DNA of 64,000 bases from Alphaproteobacteria bacterium (GTDB lineage: Bacteria > Pseudomonadota > Alphaproteobacteria > Bin95), in NCBI GenBank assembly GCA_964291285.2, contig OZ219787.1:1472001-1536000 (forward strand). Direction: 5' to 3'. A program made the position numbers and the translations under genes. Of the stretch, positions 12,267 through 47,992 are shown piece by piece; positions within the stretch are counted from its first letter, which is position 1, and each line of letters opens with the position of its first letter. The notes under the pieces were generated by a model. The model saw only the letters and a program-made list of their open reading frames with translations. It was not told the DNA's origin and ran no database searches.

Positions 12267-13589
12267 TCCTCTGTGACGAGGGTTTTGTTTGCGGCCTCGA
12301 CGACACCGGAGCCGATGGCGATGCTCCGGTCGCTGAGGTGGCGGTATCGCATGCGCTTGCGGTGCTTGCGGAAGAAGGCGAGTTCGCGCTCGATGGTGGG
12401 GCGCGCGGTGCGGTTGCTGCCTGCCTTGTCGCGCAGGTAGCGCAGCGCCCTTATGACCCTGGCGCTGCCGTGCGGGTCGTGTCGCAGGGTATGGCGGCAA
12501 GTCTCGAACCAGTTGGGATCGACGGCATGGTCGGAGGCTGTGCGGAGATGCTCGCAGGCGTGCCAGAAGTCGACGGCTTGCGCTTCGGGCGAGAGGCTCT
12601 CCGGGAAGGTCCAGTTGTCGGGGGCGCCCCCCGCCTTCGCAGGGGCAGGCTCTGGCGAGCGCAACGACCGCGATATCGGGGCACGCGCGGCGGATATGCG
12701 CGACCTCGCTTGCGAGCTGGGCCTTCAGCGTGCGCTTGCCGCTCTCGGGCATACGGGCGAGATAGAGGGTCTTGAGCCGTTCGCCTTCCCGGTCGTGCAA
12801 GGAGACCGTGCCGCAGGCGGCCTCGCGCCAGCAGGCCTCGTCGCGCCCGTCCTCGCCGGCGCGCAGCGCCACCATCACGCCGTCCAGCGAGACCGAGGCG
12901 CTGACCGCCCCGGACGGGATGTCCTCCCTGTCGCGGATACTCTCCAGCGCCTGCGGTCCGAGGCCTTCCCAGCGCTCATGCATGGTCCGGACGAGCCGTT
13001 GCAGCGTGCTCGCGGACGGCCTCATGGCGCCCATCTCCGAGAAGAACCCCTCCGCTTCCCGCGCCGTGCCGTGACCCATCATCATCAGCCCGGTCCGGGC
13101 GGCCGGGCGCGTCAGGTAGTCGTTCACCAGCCCCAGGCTCTCGTCCACCGGCACGAGCGAGGGGCCGCCCACGCCGTGGCGATAGCGCGCCCGCCTGTAG
13201 GTCACCGGGCCGAGCGTGCTCATGATCGTCTTCGGCGTCGCCGCCACACGGAACCGCCGCTGCCCGGCCCGCTCGACCCGCTCAGCCCCGTCGTCGAGGC
13301 GCTCGATCCACGACCCCAGAACCTCGCAGCCTAGCGCGTTCACGCTCTCCCGAACACGAAGCTCCGCTTCCTCGAATGCAACCGCGCATGGCGCGGAAGC
13401 AGGCGGCTCACGACAAACCGCAACCAGCCCCGACAGCGCCTCCAGTATCCGAGCCGGCAAGCCGGCAAGATCGATGGACGAGCAGGATGCAGACTGCTTC
13501 GAAACGGCCATGGGGCCGCTCTTTTGGTTGCGATTGCTTCAGAACGACATCCTACCCGCCTCCGGCGGGTGGAGCGGTCCCGCACAACG
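12267..13589 (-). pseudogene. ISKra4-like transposase copy, truncated at both ends and frameshifted
   Basis: Homologous to 46315-47992 (SVSLDGVMV, WREA, DFWHACEHL, IGSGVVEAANK). Frameshift at the 25 bp insert 12629-12653; no IRs. Confidence 0.85.
12629..12653 (-). repeat. Short palindromic insertion element (AGAGCCTGCCCCTGCGAAGGCGGGG)
   Basis: Sits where the Asp codon of the expected A-D-G-A motif should be; identical to 46900-46924. Confidence 0.8.
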
Positions 13590-13940
13590 CCCGAGCGCCC
13601 ACAGAAGCGACCGCTCGCGCGGGATCGGCGGGCCGGTCACGATGCCGGAGCAGACCGCCAGGGCGTCCGCCACGGGCGGCATGGAGGTTGTCGCGGCGGC
13701 CGCCGGCGGGCAGGCCACCTCCGCAAGTGACCGGCGTTCCCCTGGCCGCCGATACAGGCCCCGGTGAGTTGGGTGGCCTGAACGGCCGCCGACCGCACAT
13801 TCCCGTCCTGCGCCGGCCCCCCGCCTGCGCGCCGGCACAAGCTCCCCCGGCGCGATGAGGAAAGGGCCGCGGGGGTCCGGTGAACGGCCGGGCGCCCGGA
13901 GGGAGCCCGCGCCGCATTTCCGCCATTCCGGAGGCTGCCG

Positions 13941-14960
13941 ATGACCGACACCGTTTCCGCCGACTACACGCTGCGCCCGAGCGAACTCGCGCCGACCCTG
14001 GCGCTGCTGGTCGAGGCGCGCCAGCCCTGCATCCTTTGGGGCGCGCCGGGCTGCGCCAAGAGCGCGCTCGCGCAGCAGGCCGCCGCCGAGGGTTCGCGCC
14101 GCTATGTCGACGTGCGCGCGCTGCTGCTCGATCCGGTGGACCTGCGCGGCATCCCGTGGCGCGACGCCGACGGGCGCACCCGCTGGGCGCCGCCGGCCTT
14201 CCTGCCGCCCGCCGGCGACCCCGGCCGCTGGCTCATCAACCTGGAGGAACTGCCCTCCGCCGTGCCGATGGTGCAGGCGGCGCTCTACCAGCTGGTGCTC
14301 GACCGCAAGGTGGGCGAATACGAGCTGCCCGGGGGCGCCTCGCTGATCGCCTGCGGCAACCGCGAGAGCGACCGCGGCGTGGTCCACCGCATGCCGACGC
14401 CGCTGGCGTCGCGCTTCGTCCATCTGGAGGTCCGGGTGGACGCGGAAGACTGGCTTGCCTGGGGGGCCGCTAACGGCATCGCGCCCGAGGTGCTGTTCTA
14501 CATCCGGATGCGCCCCGACCTGCTGCACTGCTTCGATCCGCAGGCGAAGGAGAAGGCGTTCTGCTGCCCCCGGACCTGGGAGATGGTCTCCGGCATCGTC
14601 AACCGGCGCGCCGGTCCCGACCCCTCTGTCGAGCGGGCGCTGTTCCGGGGCACGGTGGGCGAGGCGGCGGCGGTCGAGTTCTCGGCCTTCCTGAAGGTGT
14701 GGCGCGAACTGCCCCATCCCCGGGCCGTGCTCGACGATCCCGGGAACGCGGTCGTGCCGGACAATGCCAGCGCCCTGATCGCGCTCTGCGGCGCGCTCTA
14801 CCGCATGGCCGACGACATCACGCTCGACGCCATCGTCACCTATGCCGGGCGCCTGCGCCGCGAGGTCGGCGAGTTCCTGGTCGGGTCCTGCATCCGGCGC
14901 GACCCCGCCCTCCAGCACTCGCCCGCCTTCATCCGCTGGGCCGCCGCACGCACGCAATGA
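13941..14960 (+). CDS. MoxR-like AAA+ ATPase
   Basis: Walker A GAPGCAKS, Walker B LINLEEL, ACGNR, PLASRF and CPRTWE. Confidence 0.88.
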   Translation: MTDTVSADYTLRPSELAPTLALLVEARQPCILWGAPGCAKSALAQQAAAEGSRRYVDVRALLLDPVDLRGIPWRDADGRTRWAPPAFLPPAGDPGRWLINLEELPSAVPMVQAALYQLVLDRKVGEYELPGGASLIACGNRESDRGVVHRMPTPLASRFVHLEVRVDAEDWLAWGAANGIAPEVLFYIRMRPDLLHCFDPQAKEKAFCCPRTWEMVSGIVNRRAGPDPSVERALFRGTVGEAAAVEFSAFLKVWRELPHPRAVLDDPGNAVVPDNASALIALCGALYRMADDITLDAIVTYAGRLRREVGEFLVGSCIRRDPALQHSPAFIRWAAARTQ

Positions 14961-14982
14961 CCGCCCCTTCAGGAGGACACCG

Positions 14983-17192: not shown

Positions 17193-17440
17193 CCTCCGAC
17201 GGCGGCGCGCCGCTTCCCGACCCTCCACGGCGCCTTCGTCTGGCTGCGTGCAGGACCTGGACCCCGCGCCGTCTTCCGCCTTTCCCGATACCGCCGCACC
17301 GCGCCGTCGGCCGTATCCGGCGCCGGCGCCCGCCGGACCGCACCGCCCGGAGCCGGAGCGGGGCGGCGGTCCGGGCAGGCGCGGGGCAGCCGGAGTGGGC
17401 CGCCCGCGCCGACCGTCCGCAACCCTCCATGGAGACTGGC

Positions 17441-19828: not shown

Positions 19829-19848
19829 GCGACCGCAGACCCCGCAAG

Positions 19849-19905
19849 ACGCCCCGCCGGCGCATTGCTCCGGGCTTCAGGCCCCGGGCAGCGCCGGCGG
19901 GGCGT
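19849..19905 (+). other. Long intergenic stem-loop
   Basis: Perfect 15 bp inverted repeat ACGCCCCGCCGGCGC / GCGCCGGCGGGGCGT with an imperfect inner stem, between parB and the next gene. Confidence 0.7.
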
Positions 19906-21682: not shown

Positions 21683-21992
21683 CCGGCCGCCGCCATGCCC
21701 GCCTCCGAAGCGACCGCTCCGCGTGACCCCGGCGACGAGGCGCGGAAACGCGCCATCGCCGTGTGGACCGACCCGCCGATGCCGACCGGCCGCACCGTCA
21801 CCGTCCGTGACGGTCACCGTCCGCGACGGCAGGGCCGCGGTCGAGCCGGCCCCCACGGCCCGGACCCGGAAGTCCCGGCCCGCCGATCCGCCCGGGATCC
21901 GTTCACCCCGACGCTGCCCCGTTCCGCCATCGGCCCCGTTCCCGCTTGCCGGAACCGGGGCGTTTGCCTTCAAACCCGCGGAGGACGCCGCC

Positions 21993-22757
21993 ATGCCCGA
22001 TTCCCTGCCGGCTCTCGACGACATGCCGCTGCACGACATGCCCGCAGCGCCGGCCCCGGATCGCGGTCCGGGGCAGGCTCTGATCCGCAAGACCGCCGAC
22101 CGCCGCCGGCTCCAGCGCCGCTTCCTCCGCGCCGGGCGCGAGGCGGTCGACGACCGCGACCTGCTCGAACTGCTGCTCTCCGGGCGCCCGCCGGTGGACG
22201 ATGCCGGGGCGCTTGCCCGCGCATTGCTGGACACCTTCGGCGCCGCGCCGCGCGCCCTCGCCGCCCGTCCGGACCGGCTGCGCACCGTTCCCGGCCTGTC
22301 TGAAGACGCCATCGCCGCCCTCAAGGCCGCCGAAGCGCTCGCCATCCGCATGGCGCGGGCCGAAATGCCCGACACCCTGCGCCCGTCCCTCGCCGGCTAC
22401 GACAGGGTGATCGAATATTGCCGCACCCTCGCCGGCCACCGCGAGGTCGAGCAGTTCCATCTCCTCTACCTGAACCGCAACAACCTCCTCATTGCCGACG
22501 AGCGCCTCCAGAAGGGCTCCGTCTGCCACACGCCGGTCTATCCCCGGGAGGTCTGCATCCGCTGCCTGGAGCTTCAGGCCAGCGCGGTCATCGCGGTCCA
22601 CAACCACCCGTCGGGCAACCCGGAACCATCGAGAGCCGACATCGCCATGACCGAACGCCTACGCGACGCGCTGAAGACCATAGAGGTCACGCTGCTCGAC
22701 CATCTGATCGTCACGCCGACCGGCTCCGTGAGCTTCCACGAGAGGGGGTTGCTCTGA
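21993..22757 (+). CDS. radC: RadC-family JAB/MPN domain protein
   Basis: ELLELLL, EQF, VYPREV, HNHPSG.PEPS.AD and LLDHLIV. Confidence 0.92.
   Translation: MPDSLPALDDMPLHDMPAAPAPDRGPGQALIRKTADRRRLQRRFLRAGREAVDDRDLLELLLSGRPPVDDAGALARALLDTFGAAPRALAARPDRLRTVPGLSEDAIAALKAAEALAIRMARAEMPDTLRPSLAGYDRVIEYCRTLAGHREVEQFHLLYLNRNNLLIADERLQKGSVCHTPVYPREVCIRCLELQASAVIAVHNHPSGNPEPSRADIAMTERLRDALKTIEVTLLDHLIVTPTGSVSFHERGLL
22054..22081 (-). repeat. Short palindromic insertion element (AGAGCCTGCCCCGGACCGCGATCCGGGG) inside radC
   Basis: Same 12 nt leader as the ISKra4 inserts and the same CCCGGA..TCCGGG stem as the 28422 repeats; the radC ORF stays open. Confidence 0.75.
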
Positions 22758-26207: not shown

Positions 26208-28421
26208 CCAGGTCTCTCAGCCTCCTCAGCCGGCCGCTCCGCCGGGTGCGGCCATCCCAACGCTCCCCGGCGACTTGCCGGAACTGCGCATCCTGCCGGG
26301 TTGGACGCGGTCCGGCGCGGCCTTGCCAACCGGTTTCAGCCGGTCTTGATCGCCCGCCAGGCGCCTTCCCGCCCATCGCTTGCCCGCCTTGCACCGTTTC
26401 GACGGTGAACATCAAATCCTCCCACGAGACCGCGCGGCCGTATCTTTCGTTCATCGGCTCAATCATCGCCTGAATACGATTCGAGAATTCCGGCTGCTAT
26501 CGGCAACGCTGCGGCCGATTTTCCGCGGCCGCACTTATCCGTCTTGATGCCTGAGCGCCCTCCGCAGCCCCACTGATACCACCGGCCACAGATAAGAACC
26601 GATTAGCCTCTCTCGGCGGAGATTACCTCTTGCAGTAGGAGGCCTCGGCTCAGGGGGCGAGCTGCGGAGGGAGGATCTGCTATCGGTTCCAATCAACGAC
26701 CGTTGGTATGACACGGCCCGGGCGGACCGTCCGCTGTTCCGGCCAATTCCCTCCATCTTCGCGTCTCCGTGCGTCCCGCCGGCGGGAGTCCGGCCAGCCG
26801 TCCGGGGGCGGTCCGCCGGGCGGCGCGGGAGGACTTGCGCCGCCGGCCGCCGTCACGCCCTTCCAGCACGGAGCCTGCCATGCTCGACGCCCCCACGGCG
26901 CCGGACGCCCTCGCGCGTCCTCTTCCTCCCTCAGTCCCTACCGCCCCGCCGGCCCGCCCGGCCGCGGGCGATGCGCTCTTCGCCGCCGCCCGAACCCTGC
27001 TGCCGGCGCTGGAGGTCGGACGGCCGCTCGACGCCGCGACGCTGCGCGACGCCATGACAAAGGCCTTCGGCGCCACCGACGCCGGGGGCGGCTGGGTGTG
27101 GAAGGACGCCTACGAGGCCGCCGAGGCGGCCGTGGTGATCTTCATGCAGCGCTACGCCCGGGCCATGCGCCGGAACGCCGGCGGACCCCGCCGCATGCTG
27201 GCCATGCTGGAGGCCCTCGCCGCGCTGGAACCGTCGCATACCAGGCGCTCGGAGGAACAGGTCCTGCTCCAGCAGTTCTCGACCCCGCTACCGCTCGCCT
27301 ATGCCGCGCTTCAAGCTGCCGCTATCCGGCCGGGCGATACCGTGCTGGAGCCGTCCGCCGGCACCGGCATGCTGGCGGTGATGGCGCAGTGCGCGCTCGG
27401 CGACCAGGCGGCAGGCGCGCTCCATCTCAACGAATACGCGCCCACGCGGGCGGGGTTGCTGACGCGGTTGTTTCCCGAGGCCATTGTCACCGCCTTCAAT
27501 GCCGAGACCATCGCCGACCGGCTGCGCGATGTCCGTCCCACCGTGGTGCTGATGAACCCGCCCTTCTCGGCGACGCCCGGCGTCGACCGTATCAGCCATC
27601 ACGCGGATCTGCGCCATGTCCGCTCGGCCGCCTCGATGCTGCCGCCGGGCGGGCGGCTGGTCGCGGTCACCTCGGCCCATTGCGCGCCCGGCGGCACCGC
27701 ATGGCGCGATGCCTTCGGCTCGCTCGACGACGCCCGCTGCCTCTTCACCATGGCGATCGACGGCCGCGCCTATGCCAGGCGCGGCACCGGCTTCGACACC
27801 CGCCTCACCGTGCTGGAGCGCGGCGCCGGACCTGAAGTCGAGCTGGACACGACTGCCCGCGCCGCGAACGCTGCCGGGCTGCTCGATGTCGTCATCGCGC
27901 GCGTGCCGAAGCGCCAGCCCATCGCATCCGTTCCCGCCGGACCCGCGCGCGACCTGTTCGGCGCCGCCGTCGCACCGCCGCCCGCGAAGCGGCAGGGCCC
28001 CAGGCCCGCATCGACCGCCGAGATGCGGCAGGCCCATGACCGGGGGCCGGTCTCCGAACTGGTCGTCGAGACCGGGCCGGTCGAGCCGGTTGCCGCCGCC
28101 GACACCGGCCCCTGGGCGCCCTGGCGGCCCGGCGTCTTCCAGGTGCCGGGCGCGGTCGAGCATCCGACGCCGCTGGTGCAGTCCGCCGCCATGGCCGCCG
28201 TGCCCCACCCGGCGCCGGCATACCGGCCCATGCTGCCGGAGCGCGTGGTGACCGAGGGCCTGCTGTCCGACGCCCAGCTCGAGAGCGTCGTGCTGGCGGG
28301 CGAGGCCCATTCCCGCCATCTCGCCGCGCAATACCGCATCGGCTCCGGCTGGGAGACCGTCCACCGCTGCCCGCAGGACGGCGAAGTTGAAGAACCCGGC
28401 ACGTCTCCGGCCACCCGGGAC

Positions 28422-28517
28422 AGCCTGCCCCGGACCGGATCCGGGAGCCTGCCCCGGACTCGATCCGGGAGCCTGCCCCGGACGGGATCCGGGAGCCTGC
28501 CCCGGACGGGATCCGGG
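28422..28517 (+). repeat. 4 x 24 bp in-frame tandem palindromic repeat AGCCTGCCCCGGAC(CG/TC/GG)GATCCGGG
   Basis: Four adjacent units differing only in the loop; encodes (SLPRT[G/R]SG)x4. Confidence 0.95.
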
Positions 28518-29473
28518 GACGAGACCCTGTCGGAACCGGTGCGCTTCCGCCGGGGCTGGATGCTGGGCGACGGCACCGGCTGCGGCAAGGGCCGGCAGGT
28601 CGCCGCCGTCATCCTCGACAGCCGGCTGAGGGGCAGGACGCGCGCCCTCTGGCTGTCGCAATCCGACAAGCTGCTGGAGGACGCAAGGCGCGACTGGACC
28701 GCTTTGGGCGGGCTGGAGAGCGACGTCATCCCGCTCGGCGCCTTTCGCCAGGGGCGGGAGATCCCCCTCGACGAGGGCATCCTGTTCGCCACCTACGCGA
28801 CACTGCGCTCGCCCTCCCGCCAGGGCAGGCCCTCGCGGCTGGAACAGGTCGTCGAATGGCTCGCCGGCTCGTTGGACGAGGAGGACCGCCGCGCCTTCGA
28901 CGGGGTCATCGTCTTCGACGAGGCCCACGCCATGGCCAACGCCGCCGGCTCGAAGAGCGGACGCGGCGAGACGAAGCCGTCGCAGCAGGGAAGGGCCGGC
29001 CTGCGCCTGCAGAACGCCCTGCCCGACGCCCGCATCGCCTATGTCTCCGCGACCGGCGCCACCACGCTCCCCGGCCTCGCCTATGCGGGGCGTCTGGGAT
29101 TGTGGGCCGCCGGCGAGACGCCGTTCGAGACCCGCACCGCCTTCGTCTCCGCCATGGAGGCCGGCGGCGTCGCCGCGATGGAGGTCGTCGCACGCGATCT
29201 GAAGGCCCTCGGCCTCTACCAGGCAAGGGCGCTCGCCTATGACGGCATCGAGGTCGACATCCTCGAACATTCGCTCACCCCGGAGCAGCGGCGCATCTAC
29301 GACGCCTATGCCGACGCCTTCAAGGTGATCCACCACAATATCGGGGAGGCGCTGAAGGCCACCGGCATCGTCCGGGGCGAGGACACGCTGAACAGGAACG
29401 CCAAAGCGGCAGCGCTGAGCGCCTTCGAGGGCACGAAGCAGCGCTTCTTCGGCCATCTGCTCACCGGCATGAA

Positions 29474-31169
29474 CCTAAATCCGGCAGTTGACGAGCTTGA
29501 TCGCTGTCTCGGGGTAGTGTGAACGGTCGGATTTGGGCGTGGATTTCAGCACGTGGTCGCGGCCCTGGGTGGCGGCAGCCAGGGTTGACGCCCCGGTTCG
29601 CGGCCATGGAGGTATTTCCTGAGCGCCTCGGCGAGGATGCGGCGCCAGCGATCCCCGGCGCTCAACTGCTCCGCAGTTTGCGTCAGCGACCGGAAGAAGC
29701 CGGCGATCCGGCGCAGCGCCGCCATCACCGTCTTGCGACGCCCGTGATGGGAGGTCACCGTCAGCCGGGTCTGGCCGGCGTGGTGGGTCTGGCGGGCAAC
29801 CCCGTGCAGGAGCAGCGGCCGGCTGGTGATCGCCTCGCGGTGATGGTCGGGGTCGGCGAGGCGCACGAACAGGCTCCACCAGTTGTAGATGAGCGCGATC
29901 AGCCGGGCCATGTGCCGGCAGCGCGTCAGGTCGCGCGTGGTGAAGCCGCCCCAACCCCACTGGTTCTTCAACTCGTCGAAGCCGTTCTCCGCGTCCGCCC
30001 GGTCGCGGTAGAGCTGGGCCAGCGAGCGTATCTCCAGGTCCAGCGAGGTCGCCAGCACCGCGAACTCCCACACCCCGGTGCCGGGCTGCGCCTCGGTCCA
30101 GAACAGCTCGCCCTGGGCCTTGTCGCCACGCGTCAGCGCCAGCGTCGCAGGAAGCCGCCGACGCAGCACCACAACCCGGCGCGTCCGGCTCCAGCCCTGC
30201 AGACGCAGATCGGCCCCGATCCCCGACCAGCCCTGGCCTGCATCCTCCCAGCCGTCCCGCACCATCAGCCGCTCGGCAAGCCGGCGCGCCCCCTTCGTCA
30301 GGCGCAGCTTGAACAAATAGTCCAGACCCGCAGCCTCGCACGACGCCATGTTGGCCTCGCTGCCCCAGTCCTTATCGCCCCGCACCAGACGCGGCCAGCG
30401 ATCCCGACCGAGACGGTCGAGCAACGCCCACAAGGACGGCGCCGCGCGCCTCGAATGGTGATGGTTGCCCGGCGCCACCTCGACATCCAGAACAAGCCGC
30501 GTGCCCGCCATCAGGAACGCATGGCAGGCATGCGAGGGGCGGCCCGGCTTCTTCGGGTTGTAGCTCACAACCGCCCCCTCCTGACGACCGTAAAGCGCCT
30601 TGATCGTCGTGTCGCAGTCCAGAACCCACGGCTCCCTCAGCAGCGGACGGACCACCTCGTCCAGATGGCCCTGAAGCCACGATGTGCCGACATCCGCACC
30701 GATCCGCTCCAGACCGCGCCGCACCGAATCCTCGCTCGCAACCTTGTCCATACCCAGCAGCGCAGGGTTCACCCCGTCGCCGCGCAGCGACGTGATGTGC
30801 GCATAGCGAGACTGCCCCGCCAGAACCGACAGAAGAACCGTCCCCAGGACATCCCGCTTCGACGGCGCGTTCGGGCTCGTGTAGTGCAGCGGGCAGTCCG
30901 CAACCAAAGCGTCAAAGCGACCGCTTACCTTCAGGTATTCCGAGAAAAACGCCAGATGCCCCAGCGGCGTCACCGCCGCATCAGGGTCCCATTCCACATG
31001 AACCGCGCCGCCGAAGGTGTCCACCTTCACCGACGCTCGGGCGACATCCCGCACAGCGCCAGGATAATCACCCAAAGGGTGAGCCTCTTCGGCCCCTGAA
31101 AAGCCGCTCATACCCGCAGACTACAAGGGATTCGGCAAGGCCAAGCCATCCTCAACTGCCGGATTTAGG
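29474..31169 (-). mobile_element. IS1380-family insertion sequence
   Basis: Perfect 18 bp IR CCTAAATCCGGCAGTTGA; 5 bp TSD ATGAA (29469-29473 and 31170-31174). Confidence 0.9.
29546..31111 (-). CDS. IS1380-family DDE transposase
   Basis: LDCDTT..YGRQEGA..YNP, VRGD and YRDRADAENGFDELKNQWG. Confidence 0.9.
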   Translation of the reverse strand: MSGFSGAEEAHPLGDYPGAVRDVARASVKVDTFGGAVHVEWDPDAAVTPLGHLAFFSEYLKVSGRFDALVADCPLHYTSPNAPSKRDVLGTVLLSVLAGQSRYAHITSLRGDGVNPALLGMDKVASEDSVRRGLERIGADVGTSWLQGHLDEVVRPLLREPWVLDCDTTIKALYGRQEGAVVSYNPKKPGRPSHACHAFLMAGTRLVLDVEVAPGNHHHSRRAAPSLWALLDRLGRDRWPRLVRGDKDWGSEANMASCEAAGLDYLFKLRLTKGARRLAERLMVRDGWEDAGQGWSGIGADLRLQGWSRTRRVVVLRRRLPATLALTRGDKAQGELFWTEAQPGTGVWEFAVLATSLDLEIRSLAQLYRDRADAENGFDELKNQWGWGGFTTRDLTRCRHMARLIALIYNWWSLFVRLADPDHHREAITSRPLLLHGVARQTHHAGQTRLTVTSHHGRRKTVMAALRRIAGFFRSLTQTAEQLSAGDRWRRILAEALRKYLHGREPGRQPWLPPPRAATTC

Positions 31170-33294
31170 ATGAAGTGTCCGAGCCTGATCCGCGCCATCG
31201 AGGCCGACCTCGAAGCCGGGCGCTCGGCCGTGGTCCAGCTGGTCTCGACCGGCGAGGCGCTCATGGAGCGGCGCATCGCCGAGGTCCCTGCATCCGAGTG
31301 GGACGACCTCAATATCGACCTCACGCCCCGGGACGCCATCCTGTCCTGCCTGATGCACGCCTTCCCGGTGCAGTTGCAGGAGCCCTTCACCGACGACGGC
31401 GGCAAGCTGCTCAGCCGCCCCGCCAGGGACGCCGACGGCAACACGATCGTCTGCAAGGAGGCCGAGGAGCGGCGCGACGCCCTGATCGAAAAGCTCGCCG
31501 CGCTCCCGCCGGTGCCGACGGCGCTGGACCGGCTGGTGCAGCATTTCGGGCACGAGGCCGTCGCCGAGGTCACCGGCCGGTCGCGGCGGGTGCTGCGCAT
31601 TGTGGACGCAAGGGGCGAACGCCTCGCGCTGCGCTCGCGGCCCGCCTCCGCCAACCTCGCCGAGACCGCCGCGTTCATGGACGGGAGCAAGCGCATCCTG
31701 GTGTTCTCCATGGCCGGCGGCACCGGGCGCAGCTACCATGCCGACCTCGCTTGCGGGAACACGCAGCGGCGCATCCACTACCTGCTGGAGCCCGGCTGGC
31801 GGGCCGACCAGGCGATCCAGGGGCTCGGACGCACCCACAGGACGCACCAGGCCAGCGCGCCGCTGTTCCGGCCCGTCACCACGGACGTGAAGGGCGAGCG
31901 CCGCTTCATCGCCACCATCGCCCGGCGGCTCGACAGCCTGGGCGCCATCACCCGCGGCCAGCGCGACAGCCAGACCGCCATGGGCGACGCCGCGCTGTTC
32001 CGCGAGAGCGACAACCTCGAGAGCGCCTACGCGAAGGCGGCGCTCAGGCAGTTCTACGGCGCGCTCTGGCGCGGCGCCATCGAGGGCTGGAACGCGGAAC
32101 GGTTCGAGCAGGCCACCGGGCTCAAGCTTACCTGGGAGGGCAGTCTCAAGGACGACCTGCCGCCGATGCCGAAGTTCCTCAACCGGCTGCTGGCGCTCCC
32201 CATCGCCGAGCAGAACCGGCTCTTCGCCGAACTGGAGGAACGCATCGCCGCCAATATCGAGCAGGCGATCGAGGCCGGCAGCTACGAGCGGGGGGTCGAG
32301 ACCGTCACCGCCGACTCGCTCACCGTCGCCGGCAGGGAGACGCTCCATGAGCATCCCGGCGCCGGGGCGGCCACCGAACTGGTCGGGATCGTCCGCCGCG
32401 ACAGGCTCATGCCGCTCACGGCCGATGCCGCGCTGGAGATCGGAAGCCGCGACCCGGGACCGGACGGGAAGCCCCGCCTCGTGGTCAACGCGCGCTCCAG
32501 GCGCGCCGCCGTCCTGCTGCCCGCCCCGTCGCGCATGCTCGACGACGGCGGGGTGCAGGAACGCGTGCAGCTGCTCCGCCCCGCCACACGGGACCGGATG
32601 GCCCGGGCCGAGTTCGCCGCTTCCAGCTGGGGGCAGGCCGACGAAGCCCGCTGGCGCATGCTCTGGGACGCCGAGACCGCCGGCCTGCCGTCCCACCGCG
32701 AGTCCCGCTTCTGGCTCGCCACCGGCCTGCTGCTGCCCGTCTGGGACCGCCTCCCGGCCGAGAACATGCGCGTCCGCCGGCTCACCCCGGACGACGGCAT
32801 GGCCCTCATCGGGCGCGTGCTCGACGCCGGGCAGGTCCGCGCCGTGCGCGCCGGGTTCGGCCTTGACGGCGGACCCGCCATGACCGGCGCGGAGGCCTTC
32901 GCGGCGGTGATGGATCGCGGCAACCCGCTCGCGCTCGCCAATGGCTGGCGGCTCGCCCGCCGCCGTCTCATGGGCGCCGACCGGGTCGAGGTCGAGGGGC
33001 CGGCCGATACCGACCTGCCGGCGCTCCGGCGCATGGGCTGCGCGATCGAGATCGTCTCGTTCCGCGCCCGGATATTCGCGCCTCATGCCGGCGCGCTCGA
33101 ACGCATCCTCGAACGCTGGCCGCTCGCCGCCTGAGCCGCCTTGCGCTATCCGTATCGCCGGCCCCGCCGCCGCCGTCTCGCGCGGGGGGCCGGTACCGTC
33201 TGCGAACCCACACAATGACAGGCTCGCGCCGCCGCCCGCCGGGATCCATGATGGCCGACGGCCGCCGACCCGCCCCGACAAGGAGACCGACCCC

Positions 33295-35252: not shown

Positions 35253-35696
35253 ATGAGCTTCGGACTGAACAAGGTGCAGATCATCGGCCGCCTCGGCGCG
35301 GACGTCACCGTCAACCACCTCGCCTCGGGCGGGCGCGTCGCCAACCTGAGCATCGCGACCGACGAGTCGTTCATCAACAAGCAGACCGGCGAGAAGGTCG
35401 ACAGGACCGAGTGGCACCGGGTCGTGACCTTCCAGGACGGGCTGATCGACATGCTCGGGAAGCACGCCACGAAGGGCCGGCTGGTCTACATCGACGGCAA
35501 GCTCCAGACCCGGCGCTGGTCGAAGCCGGGCGAGGACGGCGACCGCTTCTCGACCGAGATCCTGCTGGTCCCCGGCGGGCGCGTCCAGTTCCTCGACAAG
35601 GCGAACGGCAACGCCGCGCAGCCCGGCCCGGACGCGGCGGACGGCTCCGCGCCGGCCGGCGGCGACCCGATGGACGGGGACGAGATCCCGTTCTAG
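35253..35696 (+). CDS. ssb: Single-stranded DNA-binding protein
   Basis: LNKVQIIGRLG, TEWHRVV, KGRLVYIDGKLQTRRW and acidic DEIPF tail. Confidence 0.95.
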   Translation: MSFGLNKVQIIGRLGADVTVNHLASGGRVANLSIATDESFINKQTGEKVDRTEWHRVVTFQDGLIDMLGKHATKGRLVYIDGKLQTRRWSKPGEDGDRFSTEILLVPGGRVQFLDKANGNAAQPGPDAADGSAPAGGDPMDGDEIPF

Positions 35697-35884: not shown

Positions 35885-37036
35885 ATGCAGCACCAACCGT
35901 CTCCCGCCGCCGCCATCGCCGCCGCGCTTGCCGCGCGCGCCGAGGCGGTCTGCCGACGCTATCTGCCCCATGGCCGCCGGCAGGGCCGCTACTGGATCTG
36001 CGGCGACCTCGACGGCGCCCGCGGACGCTCGCTCTTCGTCCGCCTGCGCGGACCCGGCACGCCGGGCAAGTGGACGGATGCGGCAACGGCGCAGCACGGC
36101 GACCTGCTCGACCTGATCCGCTACCGCTCGGGCGCGCCGACGCTGCGCGCGGCGCTCGACGAGGCGTGCGCCTTCCTCGCCCTGGAGCCTGCCCCGGACA
36201 GTGCCCGGACCTGTTCCGGGTATCCGGGAACCCCGGACGCACCCTGGGACGCGACAGAGGCTGCCCGCCGCCTGTGGCGGCGCTGCCGCGCCATCGCCGA
36301 CACCCACGCCGAGCGCTACCTGCATGCCCGGGGTCTCGCGCGCTGCCGTTTCGCGGCGCTGCGCTATCACCCGGAGCTTCGCTACCGCGAAGGCTCCCTG
36401 GTGCGCCGCCTCCCGGCGCTGGTCGCCGCCGTCACCGGCGACGACCCCGGATACCCGGAACAGGTCCGGGCACTGTCCGGGGCAGGCGGCGCCATCCTCG
36501 GTGTGCAGCGCACCTGGCTCGATCCCCGCGCACCCGCCAAGGCGGACGTCGCCGCGCCGCGCAAGGCGCTCGGACGCATCCACGGCCTCGCGGTGCGCTT
36601 CGGCGCGCCTGCCGGCCACGCGCCGCTCGTCGTCGGCGAGGGCATCGAGACGGTGCTCTCGCTGGTCACCGCCGTGCCCGAGATCACGGCCGCCGCCGCG
36701 CTCTCCGCCGGGAGCCTCGGCGCGTTCGCGCCGCCGCCCGGCCTCGCGCGGCTGGTGATCGCGCAGGACAATGACGAGCACGGCGCGCTCGCGGCCGAAC
36801 GCCTCGCCCGGCGCTGCGCGCGGGCCGGCGTCGCCGCCACCGTCATCCTGCCCGCCGGCAACGATTTCAACGACGACCTCGTCGCGCTGGGCCCGGCAAC
36901 GCTCCGCGCCCGCTTCGCGCCGCTGTTCCGCACCGCCGCCTGCGCCTCCCCGGCCGGCGCGGGCTCCCGGTCCGGGGGAGGAAGAGGAGAGCGGAGGGCC
37001 GGGCAAGCCGACCCGAAGAGTGGAGGGAGTCCATGA
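35885..37036 (+). CDS. Toprim-domain primase-like protein of ICE backbones
   Basis: GRSLFVRL.G...GKWTDAAT..HGDLLDLI, VQRTWL, VGEGIET.LS, QDND and DFNDDL; carries two 14 aa inserts. Confidence 0.88.
   Translation: MQHQPSPAAAIAAALAARAEAVCRRYLPHGRRQGRYWICGDLDGARGRSLFVRLRGPGTPGKWTDAATAQHGDLLDLIRYRSGAPTLRAALDEACAFLALEPAPDSARTCSGYPGTPDAPWDATEAARRLWRRCRAIADTHAERYLHARGLARCRFAALRYHPELRYREGSLVRRLPALVAAVTGDDPGYPEQVRALSGAGGAILGVQRTWLDPRAPAKADVAAPRKALGRIHGLAVRFGAPAGHAPLVVGEGIETVLSLVTAVPEITAAAALSAGSLGAFAPPPGLARLVIAQDNDEHGALAAERLARRCARAGVAATVILPAGNDFNDDLVALGPATLRARFAPLFRTAACASPAGAGSRSGGGRGERRAGQADPKSGGSP
36187..36228 (+). repeat. 42 bp nested palindromic element, copy A (in frame)
   Basis: GCCTGCCCCGGACAGTGCCCGGACCTGTTCCGGGTATCCGGG. 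Confidence 0.85.
36446..36487 (-). repeat. 42 bp nested palindromic element, copy B (exact reverse complement of A, in frame)
   Basis: CCCGGATACCCGGAACAGGTCCGGGCACTGTCCGGGGCAGGC; adds PGYPEQVRALSGAG. Confidence 0.85.
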
Positions 37037-38912: not shown

Positions 38913-39550
38913 CCGCAACGCATCGCGGGCCGTGTCGTCGCTCCGGCTGCGGCACGGTCCGTTTCCTCTTTCGCACATCGATGACGCGGCAACGCCAACC
39001 TCGCGCGCTTCGCGCCGCACTCGTGCTCCGGCTTCGCCGATCGCGCTTGCGTTCCGCGTCCGCGTCACGCGCCGCTGCACCATGCTTCGCCCGGGTGCAT
39101 CGCCGTCCGCGCCGATCCCGGCGCACCGCCCGCCGCACTTCCGCCAGCGTGACTGTCGACGGCACTGCCGGCGCTGCCGCCCGTCCGCTCGGCACGGTGC
39201 TTCGCACCAGTGCCCGCGCTCGCGCCGGCGAGGCCGTCCGCTCACACGCCGCGGCGGCTCCCCTCCGCCGGGTTCCCCGGCGTCGATTTCCCCATCGTGT
39301 ATGCTATCCCTTCCGGCTCTGTCTCGACGGCGGAGCCGCTATTTCGTCACACCCGACGCATCCTTGATGCAGGGAGCGAGGCCCGGCCGGCCTGCATCGG
39401 TCGGCAGTTTTCCGTTGCGTGACAGACGGTTGGGCCTGGCCCGGCCTCTGGCCGCGGTTTCGCGCGCGGGTCGCGTTGTCCGTTCAGGAGCGCCGTTCCG
39501 TTCCCCCGGGACGGACGGCGCCCGAGGGAACAGACAACGGAGACACGCCC

Positions 39551-42355: not shown

Positions 42356-42356
42356 G

Positions 42357-44653: not shown

Positions 44654-44655
44654 CC

Positions 44656-45528: not shown

Positions 45529-46314
45529 AAAACCGCAACCGGCCGAAAAATGTCAGCGAATAGGCGCGCTCTGTAACCGTCGCTAACACGAGGCGCTGCC
45601 GCGACCGGATGGCCGGGAGCGAGTGTTCCCCGAGACCCTCACATCGGCAAGGCTTTACACCTTCTGGTGCGGTATCCGCGACGAGGCGGGGCTTCCGGGC
45701 CTTCGTATCCACGACTGCCGCCATACCTGGGCCTCGCAGGGCGTCATGAACGGCGTCGGGCTCACCACCGTCGGACGGCTGCTCGGACACCGCAAGCGGG
45801 AGACCACCGCGATCTACGCCCATCTCGACGATGGCGCGCTGCGCGACGCCGCCGCCCAGGCCGCGGCCGTCATCGCGCGAGCGATGGGGTACAAGGCGGA
45901 AGCGCCTCCGCTGCCGGACGAGGCGGCGCACGGCGATGCATCGGCCGACATACCTGCGCCGTCCAGGCCCGGTGCGTCGGCATCACCGGAGGGAGGGCGA
46001 TCCTCCCTCCGGGGCAGGACCGGGGATCCGGAGCGATCGGATGCAAGCATCCGCCGTAGACCGCAGGGTATCGGGATCTGAGTTTGCGGCGGGCATGGAG
46101 CTGATCGGGGACCCTCAGGCGGAGTCTTGCCGTGAAAATGGTTGGGAATCAGGCGCACGAAAACCCCTCCCCGCCAAAGCACTGCTCCCGAGGCGTCCGA
46201 TACTCGCCATCTGCGGCGCCCGTCTTGCGAACCGTGACCGGTAGGCAACCCCGTAAAAGCCCGAAGTCCCGCCCGCGCGGCCGGCACCTGTTTTCATGAT
46301 ACGGGGTGGCCGAC

Positions 46315-47992
46315 GGGCGTGAGTCTGACATGGCGATGCCGGGACCGGTCGGCTGATGTGGCTCATGCGGCGCGCCTGGCGGCGTAGCCAAGGCAGTTGT
46401 TGTCGTTGGCCGGGGTATCAGCATCGCTCATGAGGCCTGCCCATGCGCGGTCGAAGCGCCCGGATTTGATGAGGGCGCGTACGGTGAGGACGGCCTGCGC
46501 GCCGGCGATGCGCCATCGCATGCCGGAGCGCTTCATCCTCTGTGCGACGAGGGTTTTGTTTGCGGCCTCGACAACGCCGGAGCCGATGGTGATGCCGCGG
46601 TCGCTGAGGTTGCGGTATCGCATGCGCTTGCGGTGCTTGCGGAAGAAGGCGAGTTCGCGCTCGATGACGGTGCGCGCGGTGCGGTTGCCGCCTGCCTTGT
46701 CGCGCAGGTAGCGCAGCGCCCGGATCACCTTGGCGCTGCCGTGCGGGTCGTGTCGCAGGGTATGGCGGCAAGTCTCGAACCAGCGGGGATCGACGGCATG
46801 GTCGGAGGCTGTGCGGAGATGCTCGCAGGCGTGCCAGAAGTCGACGGCCACGGCCTCGGGCGAGAGGCTCTCCAGGAAGGTCCAGTTGTCGGGGGCGCCC
46901 CCCGCCTTCGCAGGGGCAGGCTCTGGCGACGGCGACTATGGCGATGTCGGGCCGGGCCTGGCGGATATGCGCGACCTCGCTTGCGAGTTGCGCCTTCAGC
47001 GTGGGCTTGCCGCTCTCCGGCATGCGGGCGAAGTAGAGGGTCTTGAGCCGTTCGCCTTGGGCGTCGTGGAAGGAGACCGTGCCGCAGGCGGCCTCGCGCC
47101 AGCAGGCCTCGTCGCGCCCGTCCTCGCCGGCACGCAGCGCCACCATGACGCCGTCGAGCGAGACCGAGGCGCTGACTGCCTCGGATGGGATGTCTTCCGT
47201 GTTGCGGATACTGTCCAGCGCCTGCGGCCCCAGGCCCTCCCAGCGCTCATGCATGGTCCGGGCGAGCCGCTGCAAGCTGCTCGCCGACGGCACCATGGCG
47301 CCCATCTCCGAGAAGAACTCTTCCGCTTCCCTGGCCGTGCCGTGGCCCATCATCATCAGCCCGAGCCGCGCGGCCGGGCGCGTCAGCCAGTCGTTCACCA
47401 GCCCCAGGCTCTCGTCCACCGGCACGAACGAGGGGCCGCCCACGCCGTGGCGATAACGCGCCCGCCTGTAGGTCACCGGGCCGAGCGCGCTCATGATCGT
47501 CTTCGGCGTCGCCGCCACACGGAACCGGCGTTGCCCGGCCCGCTCGACCCGCTCAGCCCCGTCGTCGAGGCGCTCGATCCACGACCCCAGAACCTCGCAG
47601 CCCAGCGCGTTCACCTTCGCCTGCACACGCCGCTCCATCTCTTCGAACGCCGCCGGGCAGGGCTCCACAGGAAGCGGCGCGCGGCACACAGTCGCCAATC
47701 CCGTCAACGCCTCCAGAACCCGAGCCGGCAAGCCCGACAGATCGATGGACGAAGACTGCGCAGGCTGCGACACTGGCATGGGACCGCTCCCGAGGTTGAT
47801 GTGGCAACAGCATCCTACCCTGCCTCTGGCGGGGCGGAGCGGTCCCGCACAACGGCCCCGCCATCGTGCGATCGTGACAAATGCCGGCCCTCCAACCCCC
47901 GATTGTCACCAAACCCCGTAATCGGGAACCCGAAACAAAGGCAAAATCTCAATATATCAACCGGTTACGATAGCCATACCGGACTTGCACCC
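46315..47992 (-). mobile_element. Full-length ISKra4-like IS with frameshifted transposase (46363-47779)
   Basis: Imperfect IRs GGGCGTGAGTCTGACATGGCGA / GGGTGCAAGTCCGGTATGGCTA; 8 bp TSD TGGCCGAC (46307-46314 and 47993-48000); GSGVVEAANK..V..RMKRSGMRW. Confidence 0.88.
46900..46924 (-). repeat. Short palindromic insertion element, identical to 12629-12653
   Basis: AGAGCCTGCCCCTGCGAAGGCGGGG at the same transposase position. Confidence 0.8.

What the first reader, a model, noticed from the sequence alone, without database searches (positions are those of the whole stretch)
12629..46924. Family of tiny hairpin elements that invades coding sequences (9 copies in 5 genes)
Seen: a shared (AGA)GCCTGCCCC-[stem-loop]-GGG(G) unit at 12629 and 46900 (25 bp, transposases), 22054 (28 bp, radC), 28422-28517 (4 x 24 bp, helicase), and 36187 and 36446 (42 bp, Toprim). 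Copies occur in both orientations with a constant leader and variable hairpin. Every copy I found is intragenic, and those in backbone genes leave the frame open. No TSD and no cognate transposase are visible. Established analogues: REP/RAYT substrates (short leader plus hairpin) and Rickettsia palindromic elements. Inference: a non-autonomous ssDNA-hairpin element, mobilised in trans, that adds peptide loops to proteins.
Basis: partly seen in the sequence, partly recalled or inferred. Interest (0 to 1): 0.8.

Follow-up and report, generated by a model that had tools for sequence, protein, structure and literature searches.

The report
Tiny hairpin repeats inserted inside genes
A 24-base DNA hairpin repeat, a variant of a repeat class already known in many bacteria, has been inserted in frame into several genes of a conjugative element, adding short extra peptides; it is a new example of a known phenomenon, not a new kind of element.

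Summary
The motif is real and non-random: 7 units of GCCTG-CCCCGGA-loop-TCCGGG in the window against 0.00 expected. The "9 copies in 5 genes" reduce to about 5 events.

- **The units are insertions.** In-genome paralogues and genus orthologues show clean presence/absence: 24 bp in radC, 24 bp in the helicase linker (×4 tandem here), 42 bp in the Toprim gene. Most orthologues lack these peptides.
- **One site is hit repeatedly.** Toprim site 2 needs at least 4 gains or losses on the gene tree.
- **The transposase copies differ.** They are a different hairpin, a 22-bp insertion in two copies of one IS, and they frameshift the transposase.
- **Not always intragenic.** Genome-wide the units also lie between genes, nest inside other repeats, and hitch-hike in IS elements.
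- **Family.** The hairpin is that of the genus's CGTC-tagged REP / Ssn-related motifs, but the GCCTG head fails that consensus (0 of 25).
- **Enzyme.** No RAYT exists in the genus. In relatives, small GIY-YIG (Ssn-like) genes are flanked by these hairpins; this genome has only a 43% paralogue.

Verdict: a new variant of a known kind.

The parts
22055..22078 (-). 24-nt hairpin unit GCCTGCCCCGGACCGCGATCCGGG inside radC; encodes PDRGPGQA (about residues 111-119 of the ORF that starts at 21723)
   Evidence: Clean 24-bp insertion against 3 in-genome paralogues. At the same site, 6 of 19 genus loci are filled and 12 empty.
28422..28517 (+). Four tandem 24-nt units in the acidic linker of the methylase/helicase (strawberry-notch-like) gene; encodes 4 x SLPRT(G/R)SG, residues 552-583. 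The copies differ only in two loop bases (CG, TC, GG, GG).
   Evidence: Paralogues carry 0 copies (C4, C5, C3_757k) or 1 copy (C3_450k). 26 of 30 genus loci have no unit in this linker.
36187..36228 (+). 42-nt composite unit at Toprim site 1: an outer GCCTG unit whose loop holds a second hairpin CCCGGACCTGTTCCGGG; encodes (E)PAPDSARTCSGYPG, residues 101-115 counted from M at 35885
   Evidence: Present in 2 paralogues; a third paralogue is 18 nt shorter. The site is hypervariable across 30 genus loci, 9 of which are 66-nt forms without a unit.
36446..36487 (-). Exact reverse-complement copy (42 of 42) of the site-1 composite, inserted 217 bp downstream in the same gene (Toprim site 2); encodes PGYPEQVRALSGAG, residues 188-201
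   Evidence: Absent from all 4 in-genome paralogues. 22 of 30 genus loci are empty at this nucleotide and 7 others carry other unit forms. Unique among the 120 closest homologues.
12632..12653 (-). 22-bp insertion AGAGCCTGCCCCTGCGAAGGCG, head and 5' arm of a different GCCTG-headed hairpin, in the transposase of an ISLre2/UPF0236-like IS; it shifts the reading frame
   Evidence: Homologous IS copies in G030 (5 loci aligned) lack it and have one continuous 505-codon open frame.
46903..46924 (-). The same 22-bp insertion in the second copy of that IS (not an independent event)
21723..22757 (+). Host gene: RadC-like JAB protein (domain at residues 227-343; the insert lies in the N-terminal part)
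26769..29522 (+). Host gene, N-terminal part: methyltransferase + AAA_34 helicase. The gene is split by an IS (transposase 29546-31111, - strand); the C-terminal part (Helicase_C_4) lies at 31170-33134.
35885..37036 (+). Host gene: DUF7146 + Toprim protein (primase-like), 383 aa counted from the M at 35885
12108..13511 (-). IS transposase region. The true frame changes at the hairpin: N-part 13568-12654 in frame -2, C-part 12640-12269 in frame -3.

Best explanation
**What it is.** The core of the finding is a 23-26-nt DNA hairpin module, 5'-(A)GCCTG-CCCCGGA-[C N2-4 GA]-TCCGGG(G)-3'. It is a head variant of this genus's own CGTC-tagged REP / Ssn-related-motif (SRM) hairpin family.

**How it behaves.** It acts as a discrete, copyable insertion module whose ends are GCCTG and CCGGG, whatever the loop holds. 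It is found:
- between genes;
- nested in the loops of other REP hairpins;
- inside IS transposase genes, where it hitch-hikes;
- unusually often, inside DNA-processing genes of conjugative elements (radC, helicase, Toprim/primase, SSB).

**Why it survives in genes.** The common form is 24 nt. The unit forms I read by eye show no stop codon in any of the six frames. An insertion into coding DNA therefore adds 8 residues (SLPRTRSG, PDRGPGQA or PGSxSGAG). It persists where the protein tolerates this, as in linkers and probable loops. It can then amplify in tandem (x4 in the helicase) or decay by point mutation.

**Inferred mechanism.** New copies are probably made from folded single-stranded DNA by an enzyme acting in trans. 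This is not a RAYT. The best candidate is a small single-domain GIY-YIG nuclease of the Ssn type, because in relatives its gene is flanked on both sides by this same hairpin. Conjugative DNA passes through a single-stranded stage, which would explain the bias towards these genes. This genome has no close homologue of that nuclease, so its copies may predate its loss, may have arisen in earlier hosts of the elements, or may depend on another enzyme.

**Sub-confidences.**
- Real insertion module of the REP/SRM class: about 0.85.
- Enzymatic, site-preferring insertion or excision: about 0.6.
- An Ssn-type nuclease is the agent: about 0.3.
For: **Shown: the units are insertions**
- Clean presence/absence at six sites in this genome alone: radC +24; helicase site 1 +24, then x4; helicase site 2 +24 in the C5 paralogue; an SSB paralogue +24; Toprim site 2 +42; the IS +22 against G030.
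- Further clean cases in relatives: G007 L073 against its paralogue L060, +24 at the same helicase position; L084 (against L066, from another genome, G012) at another position.

**Shown: the ends define the unit**
- The 42-nt composite was copied from GCCTG to CCGGG exactly, 42 of 42.

**Shown: one nucleotide is hit repeatedly**
- Toprim site 2 is filled in 8 of 30 loci with five different insert lengths (+24, +36, +42, +48).
- The state needs 6 changes on the gene tree, at least 4 of them forced by well-supported branches.
- The window's nearest relatives (96% identical) are empty.

**Shown: family link**
- CGTC[AG]C-CCCGGAC...ATCCGGGG repeats occur in 13 of 16 other genomes of the genus and in 0 of 24 genomes searched outside it. 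They are missing from G001, G003 and G013.
- G003 and G013 also lack the GCCTG unit; G001 has one copy.
- The genome's CGTCAC and CGTCATG repeats fit the published SRM consensus: 101 matches against 23 for the backwards control, 35 of them with this hairpin.

**Shown: nuclease link in relatives**
- G015 has a 95-aa GIY-YIG ORF (Pfam E 3e-17) with a GCCTG unit on each side, each nested in a composite REP.
- The G008 homologue (86% identical) is flanked on both sides by TGTCAC-CCCGGAC...ATCCGGGG repeats.
- A 57-60% subtype in G010, G009 and G016 is flanked on both sides by CGTCATGCCCGGACTTGTTCCGGGCATC.

**Shown: bias to conjugative DNA**
- 21 of 25 units in this genome lie in ICE-type or F-type transfer DNA.

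**From the literature (passages read)**
- CGTC REPs lack a dedicated transposase and do occur inside genes, often replication and repair genes (PMC3733652).
- Ssn nucleases cut folded ssDNA next to their hairpin. The hairpin loop is dispensable and can carry extensions (PMC11893778).
Against: - The GCCTG head fails the SRM consensus in 0 of 25 units. In Neisseria SsnA the conserved head is essential (PMC11893778), so cleavage of these units by an Ssn enzyme is unproven.
- Ssn enzymes are known only as nucleases. No transposition or integration has been shown for them.
- This genome has only a 43%-identical GIY-YIG paralogue, flanked by a different repeat.
- With that protein as query, no homologue was found in seven repeat-bearing genomes (G002, G004, G005, G007, G011, G012, G014). 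Two of these are highly fragmented assemblies.
- In G006 the homologue's locus, near a contig end, showed no hairpin.
- Copy numbers are inflated by hitch-hiking. In G015, 17 of 20 sampled copies sit in two IS-like repeats. Several chromosomal copies are inherited orthologous loci. True events are therefore far fewer than copies.
- Scattered presence at one site can also come from precise loss, or from recombination among the many ICE copies. The tree count cannot tell gain from loss.
- At Toprim site 1, unit-bearing alleles are only about 9 nt longer than unit-free ones, so that site is not a clean insertion.
- The helicase that carries the x4 array is split by an IS, so that array may sit in a dead gene.
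Confidence: 0.6

Rival explanations
1. A classical REP/REPIN mobilised by a RAYT (IS200/IS605-type Y1 HUH transposase).
For: The units are short dispersed hairpins with a conserved 5' head and no visible target duplication. The genome's related CGTC repeats form inverted pairs about 100 bp apart.
Against: - The Y1_Tnp family has 0 matches in this 100%-complete genome. In the genus, 1 of 17 genomes has a match: a 95-aa fragment covering model positions 48-97, with no hairpin within 3.1 kb. The same search rings in 6 of 14 control genomes.
- No TnpB zinc-ribbon domain was found.
- The head is GCCTG or CGTC, not GTAG.
- No gene bracketed by inverted hairpins looks like a transposase.
Confidence: 0.03
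2. No dedicated enzyme is involved. The units spread and vanish through general DNA transactions: gene conversion or recombination among the many ICE paralogues, replication slippage at hairpins, and templated repair that copies a nearby hairpin.
For: - The genome holds several copies of the same ICE genes at 77-96% identity, ample substrate for allele exchange.
- The x4 array and the 1.5-unit form (L164, +36) look like slippage products.
- The Toprim site-2 copy was templated from 217 bp away in the same gene.
- Palindromes are known to be prone to precise deletion (general knowledge, not tested here).
Against: - The head GCCTG is not present at empty sites, so it must be copied from another unit.
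- Insert boundaries are the same (GCCTG...CCGGG) at unrelated sites in unrelated genes: SSB, radC, helicase, Toprim and an IS5-like transposase.
- Homology between unit and target is at most a few bases.
- The four tandem copies differ only in the two loop bases, which simple slippage followed by random mutation would rarely give (3 changes all in 2 of 24 positions; my estimate is about 6e-4).
Confidence: 0.2
3. The units are kept for a function of their own. They could be DNA sites on transferred single strands, either recognition or restriction sites for a hairpin nuclease or head-mutated decoys that escape it. Or the peptides could be useful flexible linkers. Their spread would then be selective rather than parasitic.
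For: - 21 of 25 units lie in conjugative DNA.
- Head and stem are conserved while loops vary.
- In seven independent + strand events the same frame, SLPRT(R/G)SG, is used (the rest read by eye).
- SsnA limits the uptake of DNA that carries its site (PMC11893778).
Against: - Old copies inside radC decay freely (L003, L023).
- Most orthologues do without the units.
- The units sit in both orientations and in at least five reading frames.
- One insertion frameshifts a transposase.
- The frame bias can follow from a target preference for ...GAG^GG at codon boundaries.
Confidence: 0.1
4. A chance motif in GC-rich DNA, or an assembly artefact.
For: The genome is 68% G+C, and GCCTGCCCC alone occurs 286 times.
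Against: - The full unit has 0.00 expected matches per window against 8 found.
- The backwards control pattern gives 0 in all 41 genomes, against 1-54 matches in each of the 18 genomes that have the pattern.
- Identical units recur in independent assemblies.
Confidence: 0.01

Closest known systems
Ssn-related motifs (SRM; Neisseria NTS/dRS3) with Ssn single-domain GIY-YIG ssDNA nucleases (Nat Commun 2025, PMC11893778; passages read)
   Same: - A 20-50-nt hairpin repeat with an oriented, non-palindromic head.
- Genus-specific copy numbers.
- The loop is free to vary or to carry extra sequence.
- In relatives a GIY-YIG gene of about 95 aa is bracketed by the hairpins (G015, G008, G010, G009, G016).
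- The genome's own CGTCAC and CGTCATG repeats fit the SRM consensus.
   Different: - The GCCTG-headed unit fails the SRM consensus (0 of 25) and has no conserved tail.
- It occurs singly, nested, or in tandem rather than in inverted pairs.
- It is concentrated in conjugative-element genes.
- The window's genome has no close Ssn homologue for this hairpin.
- No cleavage data exist for it, and the paper's passages that I read do not describe coding insertions.
CGTC-tagged REP superfamily (Di Nocera et al. 2013, BMC Genomics, PMC3733652; passages read)
   Same: - Mostly alpha-proteobacterial, with a GC-rich stem and a 4-6-nt loop.
- No dedicated transposase.
- Head variants are tolerated (TGTC, CCTC).
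- Units occur inside genes, notably replication and repair genes.
- Copy number varies between related genomes.
   Different: - The head is GCCTG (it contains CCTG, not CGTC).
- The stem is 7-8 bp and starts with G-C rather than A-T.
- There is no CCA tail, and no head-to-head dimers of the unit itself.
- This work adds empty-site proof, repeated use of one site, and nesting.
Rickettsia palindromic elements (RPE), as cited in PMC3733652
   Same: Palindromic repeats inserted in frame into genes that stay open, adding peptide segments. According to that paper, RPE-4 and RPE-6 belong to the CGTC families.
   Different: - Different sequence and a different host lifestyle: a free-living, GC-rich genome with many conjugative elements.
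- The units here are only 24 nt (8 residues).
- I did not compare the sequences with RPEs.
REP/REPIN with RAYT (GTAG-tagged REPs)
   Same: A short hairpin with a 5' head, dispersed copies, no target duplication, and a presumed single-strand mechanism.
   Different: There is no RAYT in the genus, the head is not GTAG, and many copies are intragenic.

Membership tests
REP/RAYT (GTAG REP, REPIN) | Cognate RAYT (Y1_Tnp, IS200/IS605-type) gene present, typically flanked by the repeats | tested here: not met
   PF01797 has 0 matches in the window's own genome (100% complete). In the genus 1 of 17 genomes has a match, a 95-aa fragment with no hairpin nearby. The control search rings in 6 of 14 known genomes.
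REP/RAYT (GTAG REP, REPIN) | Conserved GTAG head 5' of the hairpin | tested here: not met
   The head is GCCTG in all 25 units found with the pattern G[CT]CTG[CA]....
CGTC-tagged REP superfamily | CGTC (or TGTC/CCTC) head directly before the stem | tested here: not met
   The unit head is GCCTG. The genome's other repeats with the same hairpin do have CGTCAC, CGTCGC or CGTCATG heads.
CGTC-tagged REP superfamily | Stem of 8-9 bp, loop of 4-5 nt, 3-nt CCA tail, head-to-head dimers | tested here: inconclusive
   - The unit has a 7-bp stem (8 where flanked by G...C) and a 5-6-nt loop.
- There is no conserved tail, and the unit occurs singly, nested or in tandem.
- The genome's CGTCAC repeats show the GTCCA tail and inverted pairs about 100 bp apart.
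CGTC-tagged REP superfamily | The same hairpin and the same phyletic distribution as bona fide CGTC repeats of the host | tested here: met
   - The hairpin cores are identical (CCCCGGAC-CCCG/TTG-ATCCGGGG).
- Among the 16 other genomes of the genus, the CGTC form is in 13 and the GCCTG form in 14.
- G003 and G013 lack both forms. G001 lacks the CGTC form and has one GCCTG unit.
Ssn-related motif (SRM) / Ssn system | Fits the published degenerate SRM consensus HGTCWY N0-2 YYVSBRH N0-5 WNVSBRG N0-2 RNCYNB | tested here: not met
   0 of 25 GCCTG units match, and the window has no SRM match. The genome has 101 matches against 23 for the backwards control, 35 of them with this hairpin.
Ssn-related motif (SRM) / Ssn system | Single-domain GIY-YIG gene of about 94 aa, bracketed on both sides by the repeat | tested here: inconclusive
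   - Met in relatives: G015 (GCCTG units on both sides), G008, G010, G009 and G016.
- Not met in the window's genome, whose only small GIY-YIG homologue (43% identical) is flanked by another repeat.
- Membership in CDD family cd10448 could not be tested here.
Ssn-related motif (SRM) / Ssn system | Site-specific cleavage of the folded single strand next to the hairpin | not testable with these tools
   This needs purified protein and oligonucleotides.
MITE | Terminal inverted repeats of an IS, target-site duplication, length 70-300 bp | tested here: not met
   The units are 23-26 nt (42-48 when nested). Filled and empty alleles show no duplication beyond 1-3 ambiguous bases.
Rickettsia palindromic elements (as a behaviour) | In-frame insertion into genes that stay open, absent from orthologues | tested here: met
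   Seen in radC, the helicase, Toprim and SSB. Sequence relatedness to RPEs was not tested.

The most novel reading that the evidence does not exclude
The GCCTG-headed hairpin is an actively homing mini-element of the Ssn/SRM world. It is cut out and pasted as folded single-stranded DNA into preferred sites (often ...CGAG^G...), above all in DNA that passes through a single-stranded stage during conjugation.

Its altered head could then have one of two meanings:
- it redirects it to a different Ssn-type nuclease; or
- it makes it a cleavage-resistant decoy in a conflict between host ssDNA nucleases and incoming conjugative elements.

If so, this would be the first case in which the long-missing mobilising machinery of CGTC-type repeats, and its effect on protein evolution (8-residue cassettes, nesting, tandem growth), could be studied through fresh events.
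Probability: 0.15. Interest if true: 0.8.

Novelty: new variant of a known kind. Interest (0 to 1): 0.45.

Why it matters
Short hairpin repeats inside genes have been reported for Rickettsia and for CGTC/GTAG REPs. Their link to small GIY-YIG ssDNA nucleases dates from 2025. How such repeats get copied is still unknown.

This locus offers unusually clean material for that question:
- a 42-nt copy made from a donor 217 bp away in the same gene;
- one nucleotide position hit, or cleared, at least four times within a genus;
- nesting of one hairpin in the loop of another;
- a 1-to-4 tandem expansion;
- a head variant that no longer fits the nuclease's published motif;
- a strong bias to conjugative-element genes.

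It also has two practical consequences:
- Gene callers and orthology pipelines will meet 8-16-residue indels of non-protein origin in ICE primases, helicases, RadC and SSB.
- Copy counts of such repeats are inflated by hitch-hiking in IS elements.

Tried and rejected
- **Any-hairpin test.** I rejected 'constant leader, variable hairpin' as a rule.
- **REPtron-like search.** I looked in this genome for a gene bracketed by inverted hairpins 0.3-3.5 kb apart and found 7 pairs. Only the C3 305858-307024 pair, the flanks of three other intergenic units and one further neighbouring ORF were annotated. These are metabolic genes (PEP mutase-like, UbiA, FGase, FAD oxidoreductases) and one DDE transposase fragment. 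None is a candidate enzyme.
- **Transposase families.** Y1_Tnp and the TnpB zinc ribbon gave nothing.
- **Rfam.** Window 12000-47500 has no family at gathering score.
- **Plasmid collection.** A search with the helicase gene returned only distant ICE and plasmid homologues and told nothing about the units.
- **Empty site downstream of the SLOG gene.** The window has a different 45-nt stretch where eight other ICE copies have the unit. It is not a clean empty site.
- **AlphaFold2 of the Toprim protein (63-row alignment).** The model is poor: mean pLDDT 54, pTM 0.36. Residues 103-124 (site 1) score below 50, directly after a confident N-terminal domain. Site 2 falls between two predicted strands in a low-confidence region. 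This hints at a linker or loop position but proves nothing.
- **Target-templated loops.** I checked by eye whether the loop bases come from the target sequence. There is no consistent match.
- **Earlier notes of this scan.** Look-ups by place and by sequence returned nothing.
- One search failed because my coordinates for one locus contained stop codons. I repeated the search with the G015 protein alone.

Full report
**1. What is in the window**

GCCTGCCCC occurs 12 times against 2.1 expected. The genome-wide density is 286 per 6.13 Mb, about 3 per 64 kb. Read in context, the matches fall into three groups.
- Seven are a true unit, GCCTG-CCCCGGA-loop-TCCGGG(G). They lie at 22055-22078 (-), 28423-28517 (four copies) and 36187-36228 (+), with its exact reverse complement at 36446-36487. 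The strict pattern has 0.00 expected matches.
- Two (12642, 46913) carry another hairpin, GCCTG-CCCCTGCGAAGGCGGGG.
- Three (32630, 51900, 57229) show no such hairpin in the printed context, read by eye.

All units fold as DNA hairpins. The 42-nt form folds as a hairpin within a hairpin. TRF reports 4.0 copies of a 24-nt period at 28422-28517.

The host genes are:
- a RadC-like gene;
- a methylase/AAA_34 'strawberry notch' helicase, split by an IS;
- a DUF7146-Toprim gene;
- an ISLre2/UPF0236-like transposase present twice.

The window is a genomic island. It holds integrases, ICE-type maintenance genes and a Dnd cluster.

**2. Empty sites inside the same genome**

The genome (6.1 Mb, 5 contigs, 68% G+C) holds several diverged copies of these ICE genes. 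Alignments show:

| Site | Result |
|---|---|
| radC | Window has 24 bp more than 3 paralogues |
| Helicase linker | 0 units in 3 paralogues, 1 in C3_450k, 4 in the window |
| Toprim site 2 | 42 bp absent from all 4 paralogues |
| Toprim site 1 | Composite shared with 2 paralogues, 18 nt shorter in a third |
| Helicase site 2 (C5 paralogue) | Clean +24 |
| SSB gene in an F-type transfer cluster | Clean +24 |

The peptides added in the window are (A)PDRGPGQA, 4 x SLPRT(G/R)SG, (E)PAPDSARTCSGYPG and PGYPEQVRALSGAG.

**3. Across the genus**

- *radC site:* 6 of 19 loci are filled, 12 are empty, and 1 has a 39-nt insert a few bases away. Two filled copies are visibly decayed.
- *Helicase linker:* 26 of 30 loci have no unit. 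G007 has a clean +24 at the window's position relative to its own paralogue. It also has another unit elsewhere in the linker.
- *Toprim site 2:* 22 of 30 loci are empty. The other 8 carry +24 (4 loci), +36, +42 (the window) or +48 (2 loci, a + unit nested in a - unit). All of these lie at ...GGCGAC(GAC)^GGC....
- *Gene tree for site 2:* I built the tree without the two sites. The filled state needs 6 changes, at least 4 of them forced by well-supported branches. It is no more clustered than shuffled labels (119 of 500 shuffles are as low). The window groups at 100% support with two empty paralogues that are 96% identical to it.
- *The 120 closest homologues in the large protein collection, at site 2:* 71 have no insert, 23 have an unrelated 5-residue indel and 26 have longer inserts. 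Many of these are of unit type (PGSGSGAG and nested forms). The window's peptide is unique.
- *Site 1* is hypervariable. Unit-type peptides (EPAPDRVPG and similar) are common there. Unit-bearing forms are only about 3 residues longer than unit-free ones, so site 1 is not a clean insertion.

**4. The transposase copies**

All four copies of this IS in the genome carry the hairpin. Homologous IS copies in G030, a genome of another family, have one continuous 505-codon open frame and lack 22 bp exactly here; 5 loci were aligned. In the window the homology jumps from frame -2 to frame -3 at the hairpin.

This is a real insertion into a coding sequence. But it belongs to a different hairpin module, counts as a single event, and is not in frame.

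**5. Distribution and context**

*Other genomes.* The unit pattern occurs in 14 of 16 other genomes of the genus, with 1-54 copies. It is absent from the 8 genomes of two sister genera that were searched. Three genomes of other families have 1-2 copies. The backwards control gives 0 everywhere.

*This genome.* Of 25 units:
- 13 are inside genes of conjugative elements, or at the start of one;
- 8 lie about 125 bp downstream of a SLOG/YspA gene that is 84% identical to the window's;
- 4 lie between other genes.

*G015.* Of 20 sampled copies out of 54:
- 15 lie in one long repeat;
- 2 lie in an IS5-like transposase, read by eye as ...GYDAGKKIK-[SLPRTRSG]-GRKRH...;
- 3 lie at unique sites.

*G011, G007, G012 and G015.* My crude codon-bias test called 8 of 40 sampled sites coding. 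Most of the rest are modules of composite repeats, including units nested in the loop of a CGTC-headed hairpin. Some are inherited orthologous loci.

Copy number therefore overstates the number of events.

**6. Relation to known repeats**

The main repeat of this genome is CGTCAC-CCCGGAC-TTG-ATCCGGG-GTCCA, in inverted pairs about 100 bp apart, with CGTCGC and CGTCATG variants. It matches the description of CGTC-tagged REPs (PMC3733652, passages read):
- mostly alpha-proteobacterial;
- no dedicated transposase;
- intragenic copies known, often in replication and repair genes.

It also fits the SRM consensus of the Ssn paper (PMC11893778, passages read): 101 matches against 23 for the control, 35 of them with this hairpin.

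The CGTC form and the GCCTG form share the hairpin. Their distributions nearly coincide. The CGTC form is in 13 of 16 other genomes of the genus and in 0 of 24 outside it. Both forms are missing from G003 and G013; G001 lacks the CGTC form and has one GCCTG unit. But 0 of 25 GCCTG units fit the SRM consensus, because the head differs and there is no conserved tail.

**7. Search for an enzyme**

Y1_Tnp (RAYT) is absent: there is only a fragment in 1 of 17 genomes. No TnpB domain was found.

A GIY-YIG search of the genus found UvrC everywhere, plus small single-domain proteins:
- In G015 a 95-aa GIY-YIG ORF (Pfam E 3e-17) has on each side a composite repeat that contains a GCCTG unit. Its nearest solved relatives are UPF0213 proteins.
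- Its 86% homologue in G008 is bracketed by TGTCAC-CCCGGAC...ATCCGGGG repeats with extended loops.
- A 57-60% subtype in G010, G009 and G016 is bracketed by CGTCATGCCCGGACTTGTTCCGGGCATC.

The window's genome has only a 43% paralogue, flanked by a different repeat. With this query nothing was found in:
- the repeat-free G003 and G013, and G001, which has a single unit;
- seven repeat-bearing genomes.

**8. How it most likely works**

*Shown:*
- The module has fixed ends.
- It is inserted, or precisely lost, at defined positions, repeatedly at some.
- Its loop can carry another hairpin.
- It can duplicate in tandem.
- In coding DNA only 3n forms are seen in intact backbone genes, while a 22-nt form sits in a frameshifted transposase.

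*Inferred:*
- Copying goes through folded single-stranded DNA and a trans-acting, hairpin-specific enzyme. An Ssn-type GIY-YIG nuclease is the best candidate.
- The bias to conjugative genes reflects their single-stranded transfer stage, weak selection on these genes, or both.
- Of 7 sites with an observed empty allele, 4 have (T/C)CGAG directly 5' of the insert. Seven independent + strand events use the frame SLPRT(R/G)SG, several of them read by eye. This is compatible with a weak target preference at codon boundaries.

*Unexplained:*
- the origin of the GCCTG head;
- why the four tandem copies differ only in their two loop bases;
- how a nuclease alone would integrate DNA.

**9. Novelty**

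In-frame REP/RPE insertions and the Ssn-hairpin pairing are both published. Earlier reports of this scan describe the same class in other phyla. I found them after reaching the same reading from the papers, and I did not test them.

What is particular here:
- the head variant lies outside the SRM definition;
- the units are concentrated in conjugative-element genes;
- there is direct evidence for recent events and for repeated events at one site.

This is a new variant of a known kind.

**10. Limits**

- Gene calls rest on ORFs, third-position G+C and Pfam.
- Several frames and peptides in relatives were read by eye from alignments.
- The tree was a quick search and cannot separate gain, loss and recombination.
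- Several genomes of the genus are fragmented.
- Only parts of the two key papers were read, and no supplements.
- CDD membership and nuclease activity could not be tested.

Noticed in passing
window 29546-31111 (- strand): An IS (DDE_Tnp_1_4 / IS1380-like transposase) splits the methylase-helicase gene into 26769-29522 and 31170-33134. Its roughly 50-bp end recurs about 45 times across the five contigs.
   Followed up: partly
window 12108-13511 and 46418-47779: Two copies of the hairpin-frameshifted ISLre2/UPF0236-like IS lie in the same orientation and bracket the whole ICE-type gene block (about 13.9-46 kb), like a composite transposon. The copies are only 86-93% identical to each other and to two further copies in the genome.
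   Followed up: partly
window 28422-28517: The four tandem units are identical except for two loop bases (CG, TC, GG, GG). All three or more differences fall in 2 of 24 positions. Slippage followed by random mutation does not predict this.
   Followed up: no
G000 C4:60715-60939 (L175 1200-2000): This genome's own small GIY-YIG gene is bracketed by direct copies of another repeat (GTCCTTCGATACGC...GCTTCCGGCTG.CGCCGGAAGC...CTACTCAGGATGAGGG). This could be a second nuclease-repeat pair with a different hairpin.
   Followed up: no
whole genome G000: Two other GCCTG-headed hairpins recur: GCCTG-CCCCCGCGAAGGCGGGGG (10 copies; seen twice directly before a GTCAC/GTCGC-headed repeat, C3:22112 and C3:787389) and GCCTG + GCCCGCGCCTGCGGGC (11 copies).
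   Followed up: no
window 35253-35696 (+): The SSB gene just upstream of the Toprim gene has third-position G+C of 0.98-1.00, far above its neighbours (0.84-0.94).
   Followed up: no
window 48000-56000: A Dnd-type DNA phosphorothioation cluster (DndB, DndE/HerA-like, AAA_23, PAPS reductase-like) lies in a low-G+C stretch (0.54-0.61) next to the ICE block.
   Followed up: no
L142 and L166 (G004), Toprim site 2: A +48 allele: a + strand unit (AGCCTGTCCCGGAC..GATCCGGG) sits inside the loop of a - strand unit. Here one unit has inserted into another within a coding sequence.
   Followed up: partly
window 38990-39085: Eight other ICE copies carry a unit downstream of the SLOG gene. At that position the window has an unrelated 45-nt stretch of similar length. 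It is neither a filled nor a clean empty site.
   Followed up: partly
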